DNA from: Trypanosoma brucei
Taxonomy: Eukaryota
DNA: 64,000 nucleotides
NCBI GenBank assembly: GCA_000002445.1
Contig: CP000067.1
Span: 224,001-288,000 of the forward strand
Reading direction: 5' to 3'
The translations under genes and the position numbers were made by a program. Below, piece after piece: positions 6,926 to 61,600 of the stretch. Positions within the stretch are counted from its first letter, which is position 1, and each line of letters begins with the position of its first letter. The notes beneath the pieces are model-generated. The model was not told the DNA's origin. It did not search any database and saw only the letters and a program-made list of their open reading frames with translations.

Positions 6926-8071
6926 TTAACTTCCAGATGCGGGGAAAGGACGCTGGCCTCCATAGCAACGCTGCGTAAATACACTTTGAGGTGAATAACG
7001 AAGCCCCCTGCTATGTATGGAATACAAGTTGTTGACAAGAGGATCAGTCACAGAGAGTTGGGGATTTATGGGGATCACAAGCTCGACGAGTCCGGAGTCA
7101 ACAGAAAGCAGTTGGGCGACATCACCACCCCTTTCACCAGCCGACCTCAACCTGGATGCGATACGGCGCAGAACACCGGCGACGAACCGCAGTGTGTCGT
7201 CGGAATTAGCGGGTTGGACATAATCCTCAACAAGTATGCTGTGCCGCGGCTGTCGGTGTACAGAAAGCGGGTTATTTTCAAGGCACAGCACTCGATCCAA
7301 AGGCCGACCCAGTAATGAGAGGTCCTTCACGCCCCCACAGTCCTCCTTGAACCAGCGGTGGTGACGAGAAATAATATGATGGTACCAGGCACGCCTCTGC
7401 ACAACCGTCGTTATCGCTTGCACTAACTCATTAACGTGGGAAGCGGTTCCAGCTGACCAAACCACAACTTCACAACCCTCCTCATGACAGACGTCGAACA
7501 GCTCCTTCAGGTGCGGTCGCAAGTGAGCACAACCACCCCGAGCGGCAACAAGTGTCTCATCCAAGTCAACAACAAAACACAATGGCGCGCCCGGGGGACC
7601 TCCACCCTGCGGGAGTAGCACTCCTTTTCTTTTCCCTTGAGAGCGACGGGTGGAAACTCGGCGCACCGGTGGCGCCGTAACTTCTTTTCGTGAGCGCCGC
7701 CTGCGGTCCTCTACGGTGTAAAGCGAGCAAAAAAGAAAGGGCCGTAGTTCCTGCAAAATGCTCATGTTGCCGTCATCGTCATCATAGTCACTAGAGTCGG
7801 AGCTCTCCAGCAGGGCGTCTTGAATAACATCGTTAATAACATCGAAATCAGACAACTCAGAGCTTTCATCGTCATCGCTGCATGAAAATGCGCTACCTGC
7901 TATTGTAACGTAAGAGGACTGAGGCGAGCGCACAGGAGAGGTGGGTTCGTCCCCACGAAAGCTCCTACTTTGTCTTGTTTGCCGTCTAACTGCAATTCGG
8001 TTCCTCCTTTCACCACGGTAGCGCGAAGGGGAACCCGTTGTGGAGGGTCTCTTCCTACACTTCCTGCTCAT
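6926..8071 (-). CDS. FCP1/SCP-like (NIF domain) protein phosphatase, HAD superfamily.
   Basis: 381-aa ORF. The motifs VVDLDETLV (DxDxT/V catalytic motif), VVVWSAG and KDLSLLGRPLDRVLCLENNP match the CTD-phosphatase-like NIF domain. Acidic Ser/Asp-rich N-terminal region. Confidence 0.75.
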   Translation of the reverse strand: MSRKCRKRPSTTGSPSRYRGERRNRIAVRRQTRQSRSFRGDEPTSPVRSPQSSYVTIAGSAFSCSDDDESSELSDFDVINDVIQDALLESSDSSDYDDDDGNMSILQELRPFLFCSLYTVEDRRRRSRKEVTAPPVRRVSTRRSQGKRKGVLLPQGGGPPGAPLCFVVDLDETLVAARGGCAHLRPHLKELFDVCHEEGCEVVVWSAGTASHVNELVQAITTVVQRRAWYHHIISRHHRWFKEDCGGVKDLSLLGRPLDRVLCLENNPLSVHRQPRHSILVEDYVQPANSDDTLRFVAGVLRRIASRLRSAGERGGDVAQLLSVDSGLVELVIPINPQLSVTDPLVNNLYSIHSRGLRYSPQSVFTQRCYGGQRPFPASGS

Positions 8072-8653
8072 ACAGTTGTTTCAACGGCAAATACTCACAG
8101 TGACACCGGTTCCAGTCCTTCTCCGTGCCCCGCTCCCCCCCCCCTGCGGTCACTATTAGCTTTTGCTAATGCAGAGAAGTTTACTCTTTTCTCTTGTTTT
8201 GCCTCGCTTCTACGCTCCTAAGGAACAAAGTGAGGGGGGAAAAAACGCTCACTTAGTTGTGTGGCGCTGACTTAAGCCGACCTTCGACAATGTATTGCTG
8301 AACACTCCAAACAGCTCCCCACTGCCTCCATTCGACAATCGTTTTCTGTCCTTCTTTTCCTGCGAAGTAATAAATGAAGCTGAAGTACAATTAAGCAAGT
8401 ACATAACTTTATGTACCCACCCATCCGTTCACAGGAACGCGCACGCAAACACGCATATGACCAAACCGCAGGGGAGGAAAAACAAAAAAAAACAAGCTCC
8501 TTCTTTTCTTTTGTCAGTCACCGCCGCAGCCGTCAGACATAAAAACGAAAACCCAACCCTTAGTACCACACTCCTCTTTCCGGGCAAAACGTGGTAAATG
8601 AATGGACAACATGTGACGTAAGACAAAACAAAACGAGCGCATCATCGAAAGTT

Positions 8654-8695
8654 AATAATAATGATAACGATAATGATAATGATAATTACAGTGGT
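8654..8695. repeat. Imperfect (GATAAT)n minisatellite.
   Basis: aataataatgataacgataatgataatgataattac, in the intergenic region / 3' UTR downstream of the Cx9C gene. Confidence 0.8.
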
Positions 8696-8772: not shown

Positions 8773-9063
8773 TTACGACACAATGCCTTCCTCCTCCAAC
8801 TCCCTCCGCTTGATGCGTTCATTTCGGGCCTCTATTTTCTTTTGATCCTCCGTTGCAACATCGTATGGGTTGCCGCGTAAACGGTACCGCGGGTTTACGG
8901 CATTCACCTTGCATAAGGTCCAATTCCGCCGTTCCATGAAGCATTCACTAGCAGCTACACAATCCTCCACACTTTGCTTCTCTTCAAAGCATTTCGTTGA
9001 GACTATACATTCAATCAAGGCATTCTTGGGGCGCCAACAGATGCTTTTGTTCTCCTTTTCCAT
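8773..9063 (-). CDS. Small CHCH-type cysteine-motif protein with three tandem Cx9C motifs. Probable mitochondrial intermembrane-space protein.
   Basis: Start trimmed to MEKENKS (ATG at 9061-9063); the longer ORF reaching 9255 adds only a Phe/Leu-rich extension from the polypyrimidine tract. Cysteine pattern C-x9-C-x5-C-x9-C-x5-C-x9-C: CWRPKNALIEC, CFEEKQSVEDC, CFMERRNWTLC. Confidence 0.6.
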   Translation of the reverse strand: MEKENKSICWRPKNALIECIVSTKCFEEKQSVEDCVAASECFMERRNWTLCKVNAVNPRYRLRGNPYDVATEDQKKIEARNERIKRRELEEEGIVS

Positions 9064-9777
9064 GAATGAGTCACCTTGGCTCACGAAATAATTGGCGACC
9101 AGGTGCAACAAAAAAAAAGGAAGAGCAGTCAAGTAAAGGAGAAAAAAAAGTGAGTGAACGAGTAGAAAGTAATCAAATATTGACGAAAAAAGACAACCAG
9201 CTGCGAAACAAAGAAGCAGGTGCGAGGTACGAGTGAAAAAGTGGCAACAAACCATTGGATAAACGGATAAATGAGCAAGCGCTCAACCCCTTGAAGGACG
9301 GCAGAATATCACACAAACAGTTCTCCGCGAGGTCGATACGACGTTTATCAGTAGGAGGGAATGGTGTACTGAGAAAGCGGTTAAGATAGTAAACAACAAC
9401 AACACATAAAACAAAACTTTCCGGAAACATGAAACATTCCGCAGAATAATCATTCGGTTGCCGACACGAAATCTCATCCCCGCGTGCCGAGTTGCACTTG
9501 AAAAATAAAAAGTAACGAAACGCCAACAAGAATAACGCAGTGTTGACAACGGAGAAAGGGGGAAAAGAAAAAAACACCGTAGACTGAGCTGTGGAGAAGG
9601 AGGGAGTAGAGAACAACGAAAAACGCAAGCGGGAGAAGAGAAAGGAGATAAAAAGAAGGAGGAAAGCGCGTTACTAACCACAACAACAGGATTCTTTACT
9701 GCCACGGAATGGGCACGCCTTGACGCGTTTTGCCCACAACATAATTGAAGCTCCTCCTTCCTCCTCCTCTCTTTCCA

Positions 9778-11046
9778 TCACCACGGCGCACTCATCTCAG
9801 GCAAAAGCACCTCTACTGGAGCTTTTGGAAAAGTTACACGAACGGTTGTGCCGCTTCCCGGGGTGGTGTAAATGTCAATGCGCCCATTCCAGAGATCCAT
9901 ATACACTTTAGAGACGGGTAAACCAAGACCGAACCCGCTGATGAGTTGGCACAAGGAAGTATTTGTGGACCAGCCAAACTGCCAAAACTTGCCGGCGACC
10001 TCGAGGCTGACACCATCGGCAGTGTCCACCACATCAACGATAACGTGCGTGTCGTTTGTTGCAAAGTACACCTTCAACTCCATGTCTGTTGCCTTCGACA
10101 TAAGCGCCACACAGGCGTTCTTTATAATCTCTCTAAAGACATACGCAAGGTGTCCCTCAACAGAACGAACCACATCTGACGGCTGAGCTTGCGGTCCGCA
10201 GCCGGGTCGGGCCGTAGGGGAAACAGTTATGCTTGAAGTCGCTAATTGGCCTGCGGGAAGGGTGGTGAAGAGGTTAGGCCGCTCCTCAACCGTTATTGCC
10301 AGCGAACCACCGTGAGCGGCCTGCACCACACGTGTGTAAAGATCAATAACAACCATTCCCGCATGCTGCAAAAGTGAAGCAACACACGGGTCGACACGAA
10401 TAACGGGGCCAAACCGCCCCGGCCCAACGAGATGGAGCAAATGTTCATGGATCACACGCCATGAAACGCGGCGGCGGCAAAAACAATAGATCCAGTAATT
10501 GACGTCCGGCGAATTGATACACTTCTCGTTAACAGCAACGTCCAGCAAATTTTCCCGCGGACGCAGACCCTCCAGCAAGTCAATGAAGCGAGTTTGCACG
10601 GAATCTTGTGCGTCCTCTGAGAACTCCAACGCCTTGTCGACGCCTTCCCCATCACTAATTTCGCTAGACAAAGTGGAACCAACGTCGCAAACCTTGTCAC
10701 TCTCCGGTTGCTGGAGATACGGATCAACCATCTCTGTCAAGGCGACACATCGCTCAAACTCACTCTTGCAAATACTCTCCAGTGGAACCAACTGAGCGGC
10801 GGTTTCACGGTCCAAATTTCGTTTCAGGATTTGGCTCGCGAAAGCTCGGTAACTGCGTGCCGTACGAGCGGTCAGTTGCTCAACAGCGGCGCGTATATGC
10901 TGGCGGTCATTCCCTTTCATGTCGCGCAAGTCCATAGGACGGAGTGGTACCTCTAAAAACTTCTTTAGAGCTCGGTTACTGCATCTCGGTGTTGCTGAAG
11001 CGAAAAGACATCTCATACTACCTGTTCTGGTTATGTTAATGAGCAC
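9778..11046 (-). CDS. Mitochondrial PDK/BCKDK-family protein kinase (GHKL ATPase fold).
   Basis: 422-aa ORF. C-terminal GHKL boxes: N-box-like VFREIIKNA, DVVDTADGV, GFGLGLPVSKVYMDLWNGRIDIYTTPGSGTTVRV. The true start may be the internal M11 (MRCLFASATPR, presequence-like). Confidence 0.75.
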   Translation of the reverse strand: MLINITRTGSMRCLFASATPRCSNRALKKFLEVPLRPMDLRDMKGNDRQHIRAAVEQLTARTARSYRAFASQILKRNLDRETAAQLVPLESICKSEFERCVALTEMVDPYLQQPESDKVCDVGSTLSSEISDGEGVDKALEFSEDAQDSVQTRFIDLLEGLRPRENLLDVAVNEKCINSPDVNYWIYCFCRRRVSWRVIHEHLLHLVGPGRFGPVIRVDPCVASLLQHAGMVVIDLYTRVVQAAHGGSLAITVEERPNLFTTLPAGQLATSSITVSPTARPGCGPQAQPSDVVRSVEGHLAYVFREIIKNACVALMSKATDMELKVYFATNDTHVIVDVVDTADGVSLEVAGKFWQFGWSTNTSLCQLISGFGLGLPVSKVYMDLWNGRIDIYTTPGSGTTVRVTFPKAPVEVLLPEMSAPW

Positions 11047-28446: not shown

Positions 28447-30378
28447 TCATGTAGCCGCTGAAAAAGTCATTCCAAGGGAAACATCGTAGAGTAGCTTTTC
28501 CTCGGGATTAGAAAGAACTTCATGTGCCCTGCTAACACGCTTAAATTTTTCCAGTGCAGCCTCTTGCATACCTGGTGACTCGCCAATAACCCGATCCGGG
28601 TGATACTTCAGGGTGAGTTTTTTATACTGAGACCGGACATCATCAATGGTAGCTCCAAAGGGAAGCTCTAAGGCGTCATACAAGGTCATCGAATTCATCG
28701 TCCGAACTACTGGCGTCGAGTTTTCCTTCTCTGTCTTCTCAAAAGGATCGGTTGCGAAATCATCCTTTCTCAAAAAGGCATCATACCACCGGGGTATGCA
28801 CCTTTTTTGCCCATTTCGTGGCTGTGAGGAGCCATTTGCTTCCATCTTAGGAAGCGACTGCTCCTCATCACCACGCAAGATGTGGCTCAACTCTGGATCA
28901 AACTTTACGGCAGTCAGTCTATCCAGAGCAGCTTCGGCTCGGCAACCCAACTGGTAGTGCGCCTCTGCACGGCATGCGTAGGCCTTCGCACAACTGGGGT
29001 CCATATCAATGGCGGAGGTGCAGTCATCAACAGCATTGTTATACCTGCCACAATGGCTATGCACCTCTGCACGCATGCAATACAAGTGTGCGCACATCAA
29101 ACGGTTGGATTTGTCCAACCCTAAACCCTCATTAATGTGAGGAATGGCGTCTACGTACCTTTTCTTACCGAATAAATCCGCCACCCGAACAAGAACCTCC
29201 TCGAGTGATACGAGATAATACCCGAGCACAAGGGCTGGGCCGAAACCAGGGCTGAGTGTCAGGCACGTTTGCACGAGAGCAGCGGCGAACTCTAGATATT
29301 TGCTTCCACAATATACATTTGCTTGTGCCAACACAACCGATGCCTGAACGTAGTGCTCATTTACACTCCGCCAAACTGCTTGTTCTTCCAATGATACGTC
29401 CATACGGAGCGACGTTGGGCGAGGTATGGTCGGCACATATTCCATCAGAAGTGTTCGTGCTGCAGTTGGGGACACGTACAGCAGTGCTCTCGCTTCCAAA
29501 AGTATCAGCGGCGTATCGTCGATAAGGGGCCGCGCGGCATCCGAGGAACATAACGCCTCCTTCCACTTCTTTTCTTCAATACAGGAGCGGAACTTCTGCA
29601 ACACCGGCAGGGCGGTACACTCCGCCGTCCATTTGACATTGTGTGGATCATCCGCTGACGGAGCGAGCTCTTTCAGCCCATAGTCATACCAGCGCCATGC
29701 GTCCCGATATCTCTCACGGACGACTAACGAACGACAGAGGAGACTCAACATATCTTTGTCTGTATCGATGCCCCTGCGAGCGTCTTCAATACATTCGTCA
29801 AAGAGCAACAGGTGCCAGTCGCATATCGCGCGCCGGCAGTGGGCCGTTTTTGAATTTGGATGTTGTCTGATGATACGGCTGAAGCAAACGTGGGCACCAG
29901 CGTAGTCCTTAGAGGCAAGCAGCCGCATCCCACGGCTCTCCAACTCCATGGATGGGAGCACCTTTTCGGCAGAACCCCCTCCCATAGCTCGAAGAATACA
30001 TCTCCACTGGATGTTCTCATTAGCAACTATCAAACGACGACATGACCCTTCCTCATTGGCTGTTTGCCAAAGGGCCGCCGTCAAGTCCTTCAGTGTTCCT
30101 CCAGGAGAGCGAGAAAGTACTGACTTTTGCGTCTCTTGGTTTCCCTTCATGCGATGTTTAAATTCCCACTGCGGGTACTCACTAGGGGCCACTCTACTCA
30201 TTGGTTTATTTCGCTTCTTCTGTGTCCTCACCGGCCGCTGAGGATGCCGGACAGAGTTCATTTCAGGTTTTTTCTGTGGTTTCCCTCCGCTGATATTTGG
30301 GAACAGAGTGCCACTAGATGTTATTGTCTCCGCAAAGCAAGGCAGTTGGATATGGTGACTCATGGCGCCCACGTGCAA
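28447..30378 (-). CDS. TPR-repeat protein with C-terminal DnaJ (J) domain. DNAJC7/DNAJC3-like architecture.
   Basis: 643-aa ORF. C-terminal J domain LYDALELPFGATIDDVRSQYKKLTLKYHPDRV (HPD motif). Upstream TPR-like repeats (AKAYACRAEAHYQLG, YLEFAAALVQ and others). Basic N-terminal tail. Confidence 0.75.
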   Translation of the reverse strand: MHVGAMSHHIQLPCFAETITSSGTLFPNISGGKPQKKPEMNSVRHPQRPVRTQKKRNKPMSRVAPSEYPQWEFKHRMKGNQETQKSVLSRSPGGTLKDLTAALWQTANEEGSCRRLIVANENIQWRCILRAMGGGSAEKVLPSMELESRGMRLLASKDYAGAHVCFSRIIRQHPNSKTAHCRRAICDWHLLLFDECIEDARRGIDTDKDMLSLLCRSLVVRERYRDAWRWYDYGLKELAPSADDPHNVKWTAECTALPVLQKFRSCIEEKKWKEALCSSDAARPLIDDTPLILLEARALLYVSPTAARTLLMEYVPTIPRPTSLRMDVSLEEQAVWRSVNEHYVQASVVLAQANVYCGSKYLEFAAALVQTCLTLSPGFGPALVLGYYLVSLEEVLVRVADLFGKKRYVDAIPHINEGLGLDKSNRLMCAHLYCMRAEVHSHCGRYNNAVDDCTSAIDMDPSCAKAYACRAEAHYQLGCRAEAALDRLTAVKFDPELSHILRGDEEQSLPKMEANGSSQPRNGQKRCIPRWYDAFLRKDDFATDPFEKTEKENSTPVVRTMNSMTLYDALELPFGATIDDVRSQYKKLTLKYHPDRVIGESPGMQEAALEKFKRVSRAHEVLSNPEEKLLYDVSLGMTFSAAT

Positions 30379-58674: not shown

Positions 58675-61600
58675 TTATTCTCCTTCACCGTTGGTAGGGA
58701 TGGGACTAATGACGACGTTTGCTGCACCTCCCAGATGACACTCACGCACCAGTTCAGCATACATCTTAGCTTCCGGAGAGGTCCCCATAATTCGCCGCAA
58801 CAATTCCATGACTCGCAGTGCTTCCGCCCATGTCCAACCTCGGCAAAGATTCAGCAGTTTCCCCCGAGGTGGTGGAGACTGTGACAGTAATTCGATAGAT
58901 AACAACCACCTGTCACTGCCGCGCCTCGAGTCACTCCACAAAAGCGCTTGTTCCGGTCTGTCGTGTACAAAGCGCCCCGCTCTCAGTAACAACGTCATGG
59001 CATCATCAACATCGCGCAGCGCAAAGACAAGAAGCGACCGCTCGTAAATGTTCGGATGCTTTAAACTCTTGAAAAAGTAGAGTGCAGCATTGTAGTCATT
59101 TGTTCCGTATGCGGCACTCCGTAACAGATGCGAGGTGATGTTCGCCGGTATTGGCATTTGCATCACCCGGCTCAGGTGATGGTAGAGAAGTCCAATAATC
59201 AGCAGCGCATGGAGAGGTTTATCCTCGCGGAGTGCAACAGGAACACCCCGCCGGCCCTCCCTCCCCAACTGTGTCATTCCGAAACCTTCCACGATATGGT
59301 TGAACAGCCGGCGCACCAACGGCCACACCGTGGTATCACTCCACCTTTCGCCGTCATAATGGAGTAATAGACCCTTCAGTAACGTCACAAGGGGTCGGAG
59401 GTATGTTGCATCCGCCCTGTATTCCTTCATCACCAACATTTGGTACCGATAGACGGCCTTGACTGCAGTGACAAGAGATTTCTCCTCCACTGCCTGGTAG
59501 TAAACGCGCACGGTATTCAGCAGGAAAGAGTAAGGAAATAATGATACCCCTTTACTTACAGCGTCAAACGGGATATGTGGCTTCATGCAAGCGATAAGCA
59601 ACCAGTGCTCATCGATCACCTCATTATTTTCACTCAAATCGCCGATTGCTGTTAGTGCTTGTTCCCATGATAAAACACGAAGTAGTCGCTGAAGCCCATG
59701 TTCGTCCACGTCCAGCGCGCAAAGAGTAGAAAGTTTAGCTGTCTGCATGACATCGTGCATTGATTGCGAAGACTGAAGCAAAGCGCAGCATGCCCCAAGT
59801 ACACGCCTCCTCCACTGCACATCCTTCCTTCCATTGCTGAACTTCGTCCGAAAGGCAGAAATCACAAGCTCATCCGTCGCAAATCTGGTATCGCCATGAA
59901 GCAGATCCTGCAGAACAAGAGTCCAACGGTCCTGCGGATTGCCCCTCCAGAGCAATTTGACAACATTTAAGGCTAAATGGCGAGGCGCCACATAAGCCAG
60001 AGCGGCAGACGACTCCGGATAGGGAGGTTTCGTTCGCTGCATAATTACAATAGCACGCTCCCACTGCCCGGTAAGAGCTAAGGCACTCATACAACTCTCC
60101 AAAGCTACCGCATGCGCAGTAAGATAATGTAGAGGGGTGGTTAATGCAATGCGGGACGACAGGGTAGCATCTAAACGGCCAAAATGAGGAGTTGCGCGAA
60201 GTACCGCTAATGAAAACTCGTGACGAAGACCGGCGGTAAGTTGAACTTTCCCGCTTGCAAGGCAGCGCGAAACCTCCCGCAGGAATGCCTCGCCGGACAA
60301 CTTATTGGTGAGACGGAGATGTTCCACCACGATGGCACAGAGAGCATTGCATCCCTCACCATCTGTGACAATTTCATTACCCGATAGAAACTTGGCATAT
60401 CGGTCGGGAGACACTGGTTTCAGCCCACCCCTTCTCCGCAAGCCAAAATGATGTTTGCGCAGCTCCTGAGGGATAACCTGCACAAAATATTGCTGGACTT
60501 TGCTGCTGGCGGAAAGGCACACAAGTCTAGAAAGTTCCTCGCTCTGGAACGTGAAGCACTGTATCTCACTACTTTCCTCCAATATCGGGGACTTCGGTGA
60601 AAGTTTCGGCTCACTTCGTGCCAGCATCAATGACTTGAGCCTAGCATTATCATGAACATTTTTTAGTTGTCTCCAGTCCCCATGCAGAGCAACGGCTAAC
60701 TGCTCCTCAAAGGAAACAGGCGCTTGCAGCCCACCGGGAAGATTCACACGGCACAGAGCCCCTTCGTAGGCAAGCAGTTCATGGGGCAAAGCAGCGCCTC
60801 TTGATGCATACGGTGCGAGGGGGAGTGCTACGTCATAGTAACGACACCCACAAAGCAAACCAATGGCCTCAGCCCATTCGCCCCTCTGGGCCAGCTTAAA
60901 AGCCCTACGTGACAATGTTCCGGCGTACATGGACTCCCCCGTCGCTCGAGTGGCGTCCGTTAGTATTTGCATTCGTTGCGGGTGGTCGCCAGGTACCATA
61001 CTGAGGATGGGACGCAATATGCCATATGAGTCGACGCCGTTCTGACTACAAAAATGGAGAGAAGCCTCCCATCCCACAGCGGAAATGCAGTCCTTTCGAA
61101 TAAGTAGCGCTTGAGCTGCGTCACGCGACCTCCACCGCTCGTATGTTCTCAATGCACACAGCCAGTTCGGGGCGTATTCGATAGACGAAGCAACAAAGGA
61201 GGGCTCTACAGGGTGAAGACACTCTATAGCTTTAATCCATTGAACCATACGCGAAGTGTGTAACCAAAGAAGCCGTTTGGCCGAAGGCCGGACTTCGTGC
61301 GCGGCATTGACAACGGACAGAGCGACGCTCCACTGGCCTTGGGTTGCATATAACATGGCATATCTAAAAGCCAATACCTCTCTTTCTGACCTTGGCAATT
61401 TCTCAGCCCCAACCAGCGCCAGGAGACGGCAACAACTCAGTGCCGTGTCCGGTTGTTTCCCTCCCAGCTCATAGCAGTGCAGTAGTACACAAGACACAAC
61501 TGGAAGCACACCTCCCAGCTGAGGGCGTTCTCGAATCGCTGCCAGCACTATGGACGCAAATTGAACAATTGTTTCTGAAGCCAGAAGACGGTTGAAAACG

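What the first reader, a model, noticed from the sequence alone, without database searches (positions are those of the whole stretch)
8773..9063. Small protein with three, not two or four, tandem Cx9C motifs.
The 96-aa product has the spacing C-x9-C-x5-C-x9-C-x5-C-x9-C. Classical CHCH proteins imported by the Mia40 pathway have twin Cx9C (two helices); NDUFA8-type proteins have four. Three consecutive Cx9C helices separated by 5-residue loops is an odd count for pairwise helix-helix disulfides. Either one motif pairs in trans, or one is unpaired and redox-active. The gene is easy to miss because the longest ORF (to 9255) starts with a 64-residue Phe/Leu junk extension.
Basis: partly seen in the sequence, partly recalled or inferred. 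Interest (0 to 1): 0.5.

Follow-up and report, generated by a model that had tools for sequence, protein, structure and literature searches.

The report
Trypanosome PET191/COA5 oxidase assembly factor
This small six-cysteine protein is the Trypanosoma brucei copy of PET191/COA5, a known mitochondrial helper for building cytochrome c oxidase, and its three Cx9C motifs are the normal hallmark of that family, so the finding is real but ordinary.

Summary
Window 8773-9063 (minus strand) encodes a 96-aa protein with Cys at 9, 19, 25, 35, 41 and 51 (C-x9-C-x5-C-x9-C-x5-C-x9-C). The 64-residue N-terminal extension of the longest ORF is read-through of a pyrimidine-rich splice-acceptor region.

It is not an unusual CHCH protein. 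[quoted passage not shown] It matches Pfam PF10203 (Pet191_N) at 37.3 bits against a cut-off of 24.4.

All six cysteines align one-to-one with human COA5 (C14/24/30/41/47/57) and yeast Pet191p (C5/15/21/32/46/56). The family-wide pattern is C-x9-C-x5-C-x(9-11)-C-x(5-16)-C-x9-C.

Peikert et al. 2017 already list this gene with three Cx9C motifs at 9-19, 25-35 and 41-51, inside the ATOM40-dependent mitochondrial importome. Diplonema Coa5/Pet191 is published with the same x5 linkers.

An AlphaFold2 model (pLDDT 87.9) gives the same helix layout here.

Verdict: already known, low interest. Which cysteines actually pair remains unproven for the whole family.

The parts
8773..9063 (-). Coding sequence of the 96-aa PET191/COA5 orthologue (Tb927.4.830), stop codon included
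   Evidence: Translation. It is 100% identical to the C-terminal 96 aa of XP_844233.1 (T. b. brucei TREU927) and to the 96-aa T. b. equiperdum protein named PET191. Peikert 2017 list an 11.34-kDa model for it.
8869..9042 (-). Pet191_N domain (residues 8-65)
   Evidence: Pfam PF10203: E=3.4e-9, 37.3 bits against a gathering cut-off of 24.4; profile positions 3-67 of 67 are matched.
8911..9039 (-). Six-cysteine core C9-x9-C19-x5-C25-x9-C35-x5-C41-x9-C51
   Evidence: The six Cys are invariant or nearly so in alignments A1, A2 and A3. They align with human C14/24/30/41/47/57 and yeast C5/15/21/32/46/56.
8791..8850 (-). Conserved charged C-terminal helix (residues 72-91). Present in euglenozoan orthologues, absent from human COA5.
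   Evidence: The AlphaFold2 model has helix H72-91. D73, E78, R80, R83, I84, R87 and G93 are invariant among 27 kinetoplastid-type sequences. Human COA5 ends right after the RGxxxY motif.
9064..9255 (-). Non-coding 5' flank wrongly included in the 160-aa ORF. It holds a pyrimidine-rich tract (about 9105-9169) followed by AG dinucleotides at 9081-9080 and 9076-9075, read here as the spliced-leader acceptor region (inferred).
   Evidence: Sequence. The richest 30-nt stretch is 87% pyrimidine. There is no ATG between 9252 and 9063 on this strand. Angomonas has an in-frame stop 15 codons upstream of its ATG and a similar polyY-AG; L004/L005 have a stop 8 codons upstream. Most orthologues start at the equivalent Met or within a few residues of it.

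Best explanation
The feature is the Trypanosoma brucei orthologue of the cytochrome c oxidase (complex IV) assembly factor PET191/COA5, gene Tb927.4.830.

Shown: it is a 96-aa, presequence-less, six-cysteine protein of the Pet191_N family. All six cysteines correspond to those of the human and yeast proteins, and the protein is imported into the T. brucei mitochondrion.

Inferred by homology: it is oxidatively folded in the intermembrane space. In trypanosomes this would go through the Mia40-less ERV1 pathway. There it would support early complex IV biogenesis by stabilising the copper-chaperone modules (SCO1, COX11), as described for human PET191.

Inferred from the AlphaFold2 secondary structure, from the published description of the human model, and from yeast mutant phenotypes: the first and third Cx9C motifs lie on the two long helices (10-21 and 39-55) and form the structural disulfides C9-C51 and C19-C41. 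The middle pair C25/C35 sits in a broken linker. It would be the 'extra' pair, available for a third disulfide, redox transfer or copper handling.

Three motifs are therefore the family norm and not an anomaly.
For: Identity. The protein is 100% identical to XP_844233.1/Q580B1 of T. b. brucei TREU927, on a 1,590,432-bp contig. The 96-aa T. b. equiperdum entry is named PET191.

Family. Pfam PF10203 scores 37.3 bits against a cut-off of 24.4 and is the only family hit for the 96-aa product. A profile of the kinetoplastid sequences retrieves distant proteins, and 10 of 10 tested are Pet191_N. Human COA5 and yeast Pet191p, verified by exact look-up, align with all six Cys in register. The family pattern is C-x9-C-x5-C-x(9-11)-C-x(5-16)-C-x9-C.

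Prior publication. Peikert 2017 Suppl. Data 9 list Tb927.4.830 as 'PET191, putative', 11.34 kDa, with three Cx9C at (9-19), (25-35), (41-51), in the ATOM40-dependent importome. The gene is also in that paper's mitochondrial reference set. Diplonema Coa5/Pet191 is published with three Cx9C and [5] linkers.

Mechanism. Human PET191 has four structural Cys plus C30/C41 in the linker. The C30A,C41A mutant is stable and partly functional but loses suppression of the COX11 knockout. PET191 interacts with SCO1, SCO2, COX11, COX19 and COX10. In yeast, C5 and C56 mutants are null and C15, C32 and C46 mutants are partial. That fits outer C1-C6 and inner C2-C5 disulfides.

Structure. The AlphaFold2 model has pLDDT 87.9 and pTM 0.69. 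Its helices are 10-21, 24-29, 39-55, 58-63 and 72-91, so the middle motif is not one continuous helix.

Synteny. The order HATPase_c gene, then Pet191, then a downstream gene, is conserved in Angomonas.
Against: No functional experiment on the T. brucei protein was found; the gene ID appears in no paper's main text.

The structure tool returns no coordinates, so no Cys-Cys distances were measured. The disulfide assignment is therefore inferred.

A review treats the Cx10C plus Cx9C motifs (motifs 2 and 3) as the CHCH pair. This conflicts with the motif 1 plus motif 3 assignment.

ERV1-dependence of this protein could not be read, because the held copy of that supplementary table is truncated.

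Sequence identity to human and yeast proteins is only 21-25%.
Confidence: 0.9

Rival explanations
1. Same protein family, different wiring. The CHCH hairpin is formed by motifs 2 and 3 (C25-C51 and C35-C41). The first motif (C9, C19) is then the non-structural pair, either free, metal-binding or disulfide-linked in trans within a homo-oligomer.
For: The review PMC7909247 describes COA5/Pet191p as a CX10C-CX9C protein and draws the CHCH domain over those motifs. Yeast Pet191p self-associates. The yeast C5 mutant is null, so motif 1 is functionally critical.
Against: The AlphaFold2 model puts motif 1 on a well-defined long helix (10-21; the 11-20 block has mean pLDDT 94) and breaks motif 2 into a short helix plus a turn. 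Nyvltova 2022 describe the same layout for human PET191, and their C30A,C41A mutant is stable. In yeast, C5 and C56 share a null phenotype while C15 and C46 share a partial one, which suggests C1-C6 and C2-C5 pairs.
Confidence: 0.2
2. The real product is the 160-aa ORF (8773-9255). Its hydrophobic Phe/Leu-rich N-terminus would act as a membrane anchor for a PET191 domain.
For: The frame is open to 9255, and GenBank records for T. b. brucei and T. b. gambiense annotate 160 aa. Pet191p is reported on the IMS side of the inner membrane in yeast.
Against: The extension is not conserved. Most orthologues start at or near the equivalent Met, and the few with N-terminal extensions carry unrelated sequence. 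In-frame stops lie 15 and 8 codons upstream of the ATG in other species. The extension is the translation of a pyrimidine tract followed by AG, typical of a trans-splice acceptor. TriTrypDB and T. b. equiperdum models are 96 aa / 11.34 kDa.
Confidence: 0.03
3. It is a new or different CHCH-type family (Cmc1, COX17 or NDUFA8-like) with an atypical motif count.
For: There are three exact Cx9C motifs, whereas human and yeast members have Cx10C in the middle.
Against: Only PF10203 is hit by the 96-aa product. CHCH, Cmc1, COX17 and NDUFA8 families do not appear even at E<=10. Middle spacings of x9, x10 and x11 all occur within Pet191_N proteins. The post-cysteine R-x-R-G motif is shared.
Confidence: 0.02

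Closest known systems
Human COA5 (PET191, C2orf64; NP_001008216.1)
   Same: A small IMS-type protein with six Cys in register (C14/24/30/41/47/57 against Tb C9/19/25/35/41/51). It has x5 linkers on both sides of the middle motif and an R-x-R-G motif after the last Cys. It is described as a helical hairpin with two extra linker cysteines, and the Tb model has the matching helix layout.
   Different: The middle motif is Cx10C in human and Cx9C in T. brucei. Human COA5 is 74 aa and lacks the conserved charged C-terminal helix (Tb residues 72-91). Identity is only about 25%. Human cells have MIA40/CHCHD4, whereas trypanosomes lack it.
Saccharomyces cerevisiae Pet191p
   Same: Six aligned Cys (C5/15/21/32/46/56) and the Pet191_N domain. 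It is required for cytochrome c oxidase assembly, and cysteine mutants impair respiratory growth.
   Different: The middle motif is Cx10C, with a 13-residue rather than 5-residue spacer before the third motif. Its C-terminal tail is unrelated.
Diplonema papillatum Coa5/Pet191 (DIPPA_17221) and other euglenozoan orthologues
   Same: The published arrangement is identical: Cx9C-[5]-Cx9C-[5]-Cx9C. A close relative, P0039, is retrieved by the profile search.
   Different: It is longer (157 aa) and has an N-terminal extension.
Classical twin-Cx9C CHCH proteins (COX17, COX19, CMC1, Mdm35)
   Different: They have two motifs, not three. There is no Pfam CHCH, Cmc1 or COX17 hit for this protein.

Membership tests
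Pet191/COA5 (Pfam PF10203, Pet191_N) | Match to the family profile above the curated gathering score | tested here: met
   37.3 bits against a cut-off of 24.4, E=3.4e-9. Profile positions 3-67 of 67 are matched, and it is the only family hit for the 96-aa product.
Pet191/COA5 (Pfam PF10203, Pet191_N) | Six conserved cysteines, C-x9-C-x5-C-x(9-11)-C-x(n)-C-x9-C, in register with characterised members | tested here: met
   Alignment A2 aligns Tb C9/19/25/35/41/51 with human C14/24/30/41/47/57 and yeast C5/15/21/32/46/56. Spacing table.
Pet191/COA5 (Pfam PF10203, Pet191_N) | Conserved basic R-x-R-G motif about 10 residues after the last cysteine | tested here: met
   R61, R63 and G64 are invariant or nearly so across kinetoplastid, distant, human and yeast sequences.
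Pet191/COA5 (Pfam PF10203, Pet191_N) | Searching outward from this protein's clade retrieves Pet191 proteins and not other Cx9C families | tested here: met
   All 10 distant profile hits that were tested are PF10203. Sources name the close homologues COA5/PET191.
Pet191/COA5 (Pfam PF10203, Pet191_N) | Mitochondrial localisation | tested here: met
Pet191/COA5 (Pfam PF10203, Pet191_N) | Intermembrane-space location and import that depends on the disulfide relay (ERV1) | tested here: inconclusive
   The ERV1-RNAi table is held only in truncated form and the gene was not found in it. Even for yeast Pet191 the literature is reported as contradictory on localisation.
Pet191/COA5 (Pfam PF10203, Pet191_N) | Required for cytochrome c oxidase assembly | not testable with these tools
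   No functional study of the T. brucei gene was found. This needs RNAi or knockout with a complex IV readout.
Classical twin-Cx9C CHCH domain (Pfam PF06747) | Exactly two Cx9C helices forming a hairpin with two disulfides, and a match to the CHCH profile | tested here: not met
NDUFA8-type quadruple Cx9C | Four Cx9C motifs (two CHCH domains) | tested here: not met
   Only six Cys, making three motifs.

The most novel reading that the evidence does not exclude
Euglenozoa lack Mia40. In that setting PET191 may have acquired a lineage-specific role. The middle C25/C35 pair could act as a redox or copper relay. The euglenozoan-conserved charged C-terminal helix (residues 72-91), absent from human COA5, could be a docking module for a trypanosome-specific partner in complex IV metallation or oxidative folding.
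Probability: 0.08. Interest if true: 0.35.

Novelty: already known. Interest (0 to 1): 0.08.

Why it matters
There is little new here. The gene, its name, its three Cx9C motifs and its mitochondrial import are already in public databases and in a published supplementary table.

Two points have some use. First, the GenBank TREU927 and gambiense records still carry an over-extended 160-aa 'hypothetical protein' model that hides the family assignment. Second, no structure or disulfide map exists for any PET191/COA5 protein, and two published assignments of the structural cysteines disagree. It is already being pursued in human cells and is not specific to this locus.

Tried and rejected
- PDB sequence search: no relative.
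- Foldseek against PDB: nothing significant.
- The afdb50 library was unavailable.
- NCBIfam gave no hit, as expected for a prokaryote-oriented library.
- Khalimonchuk 2008 (the primary yeast Pet191 paper) is not held, so the yeast mutant data are cited through the review.
- A main-text search for 'Tb927.4.830' found no papers.
- The ERV1-knockdown table is truncated in the held copy, so ERV1-dependence is undetermined.
- The structure tool returns no coordinates, so cysteine-cysteine distances could not be measured.
- The first AlphaFold2 run used only kinetoplastid sequences and gave pLDDT 74. It was superseded by the deeper alignment, pLDDT 87.9.
- Rejected readings: a chance ORF, a 160-aa membrane-anchored form, and membership of the CHCH, Cmc1, COX17 or NDUFA8 families (see rival explanations).

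Full report
**Observation.** The minus strand of window 8773-9063 translates to a 96-aa protein followed by a stop codon. Cysteines sit at 9, 19, 25, 35, 41 and 51, which is exactly C-x9-C-x5-C-x9-C-x5-C-x9-C. The longest ORF in this frame extends to 9255 (160 aa) with a Phe/Leu-rich N-terminus. A three-motif pattern occurs once in the six-frame translation of the whole 64-kb window. It occurs in none of 200 shuffled versions.

**Origin and gene model.** The 160-aa ORF is 100% identical to XP_844233.1/Q580B1 of Trypanosoma brucei brucei TREU927, annotated 'hypothetical protein, conserved', on a 1,590,432-bp contig. [quoted passage not shown]

Several lines support the 96-aa model:
- Most of the 26 kinetoplastid-type homologues start at the equivalent Met or within a few residues of it. 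The few with N-terminal extensions carry unrelated sequence.
- In Angomonas deanei an in-frame stop lies 15 codons upstream of the ATG. In two metagenomic relatives it lies 8 codons upstream.
- In T. brucei the upstream frame stays open only because it runs through a pyrimidine-rich tract, 87% pyrimidine over the richest 30 nt. AG dinucleotides follow at 9081-9080 and 9076-9075.
- That layout is what is expected of a trypanosomatid trans-splice acceptor. This step rests on established knowledge and was not measured here.
- No other ATG lies between 9252 and 9063 on this strand.

[quoted passage not shown] The score is 37.3 bits against a gathering cut-off of 24.4, covering profile positions 3-67 of 67. 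CHCH, Cmc1, COX17 and NDUFA8-type families do not appear even at E<=10.

A word-indexed search found 27 homologues, nearly all carrying precomputed PF10203. Several are named COA5/PET191 by their sources. A full HMMER profile search with the kinetoplastid alignment reached distant proteins, and all 10 that I tested are Pet191_N.

I recalled the human COA5 and yeast Pet191p sequences from memory and then verified them by exact look-up. They match NP_001008216.1/COA5_HUMAN and Pet191p of S288C. In the joint alignment all six T. brucei cysteines align with human C14/24/30/41/47/57 and yeast C5/15/21/32/46/56. The R-x-R-G motif after the last cysteine is also shared.

Across all sequences collected, the family pattern is C-x9-C-x5-C-x(9-11)-C-x(5-16)-C-x9-C. 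Three consecutive motifs are the hallmark of this family.

**Already published.**
- Peikert et al. [quoted passage not shown] They give match locations (9-19), (25-35), (41-51), three Cx9C motifs, and flag the protein as part of the ATOM40-dependent mitochondrial importome.
- The gene is also in that paper's mitochondrial reference set.
- A 2025 diplonemid mitoproteome paper tabulates Coa5/Pet191 with three Cx9C motifs separated by [5] and [5] residues.

**How it most likely works.** By homology, the protein is a soluble or peripherally attached intermembrane-space factor for early complex IV biogenesis. In yeast, PET191 mutants lose cytochrome oxidase activity. C5 and C56 mutants are null, and C15, C32 and C46 mutants are partial.

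In human cells the PET191 knockout abolishes complex IV. PET191 interacts with SCO1, SCO2, COX11, COX19, COX10, COA3 and COX16. Its overexpression partly suppresses a COX11 knockout.

Nyvltova et al. state that, by AlphaFold, human PET191 is a helical hairpin in which four cysteines form two structural disulfides. C30 and C41, the middle motif, lie in the linker and 'could play a role in Cu or redox transfer'. The C30A,C41A mutant is stable and partly functional but no longer suppresses the COX11 knockout.

My AlphaFold2 model of the T. brucei protein used a 45-sequence alignment and has pLDDT 87.9 and pTM 0.69. Helices are at 10-21, 24-29, 39-55, 58-63 and 72-91. Motifs 1 and 3 therefore sit on the two long helices, and motif 2 is split between a short helix and a turn. 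This is the layout described for the human protein.

I infer structural disulfides C9-C51 and C19-C41, with C25/C35 as the extra pair. The matched yeast phenotypes fit this: C1 and C6 are both null, and C2 and C5 are both partial.

This assignment is inferred, not shown:
- The tool returns no coordinates.
- No family member has a solved structure.
- A review assigns the CHCH domain to motifs 2 and 3 instead.

Trypanosomes lack Mia40, so oxidative folding presumably depends on ERV1 and an unidentified partner. The ERV1-dependence of this particular protein could not be read from the truncated table.

**Context.** The gene lies in a same-strand (minus) array. A 422-aa HATPase_c protein is upstream (9778-11046) and a 381-aa NIF-type phosphatase is downstream (6926-8071). 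The HATPase_c-then-Pet191 order is conserved in Angomonas deanei. This is consistent with a conserved trypanosomatid polycistronic unit.

**Verdict.** The feature is real and was correctly described, and the gene-model remark is right. But it is the known PET191/COA5 orthologue, and its three motifs are family-typical and already tabulated for this gene. Novelty: already known. Interest: low.

The residual open question is which cysteines pair and what the third pair does. It belongs to the whole family and is already under study in human cells. The only lineage-specific feature I saw is the conserved charged C-terminal helix in euglenozoan orthologues.

Noticed in passing
window 8773-9255 (minus strand): The GenBank/RefSeq records for T. 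b. brucei TREU927 (XP_844233.1) and T. b. gambiense (XP_011772648.1) annotate the over-extended 160-aa ORF as 'hypothetical protein, conserved'. The T. b. equiperdum and TriTrypDB models are 96 aa and are named PET191.
   Followed up: yes
window 8791-8850 (minus strand; residues 72-91): A highly conserved charged C-terminal helix (invariant D73, E78, R80, R83, I84, R87, G93). It is present in kinetoplastid-type orthologues but absent from human COA5 and unrelated to the yeast tail. It may be a lineage-specific interaction module.
   Followed up: partly
window 8653-8686: A short hexanucleotide tandem repeat, (TAATGA) x 5.7, lies in the 3' flank of the PET191 gene, about 90 nt past the stop codon on the gene's strand.
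   Followed up: partly
window 6926-8071 and 9778-11046 (both minus strand); L001 2291-5918: The neighbours on the same strand are a 381-aa NIF/FCP-type phosphatase (DxDxT motif; Pfam NIF, 81 bits) and a 422-aa HATPase_c protein that resembles a mitochondrial kinase. The order HATPase_c then Pet191 is conserved in Angomonas deanei.
   Followed up: partly
window 28942-29052 (minus strand, inside a 668-aa ORF); also 60053-60148 and 9404-9496: These are other pairs of Cx9C spacings found by the motif scan. The one at 28942-29052 lies in a large ORF with TPR-like sequence. The others lie in short, probably non-coding ORFs. They are likely coincidental.
   Followed up: no
protein P0047: A 1008-aa protein with about 30 cysteines at a strict 16-residue period matched the PET191 profile in 13 stretches (E=5e-5). 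It looks like a repeat-driven false positive and not a relative.
   Followed up: no
literature: Two publications assign the structural CHCH cysteines of COA5/PET191 differently. The 2021 review uses motifs 2 and 3 (CX10C-CX9C). Nyvltova 2022 use motifs 1 and 3, with C30/C41 as extra cysteines. No experimental structure exists to settle it.
   Followed up: partly
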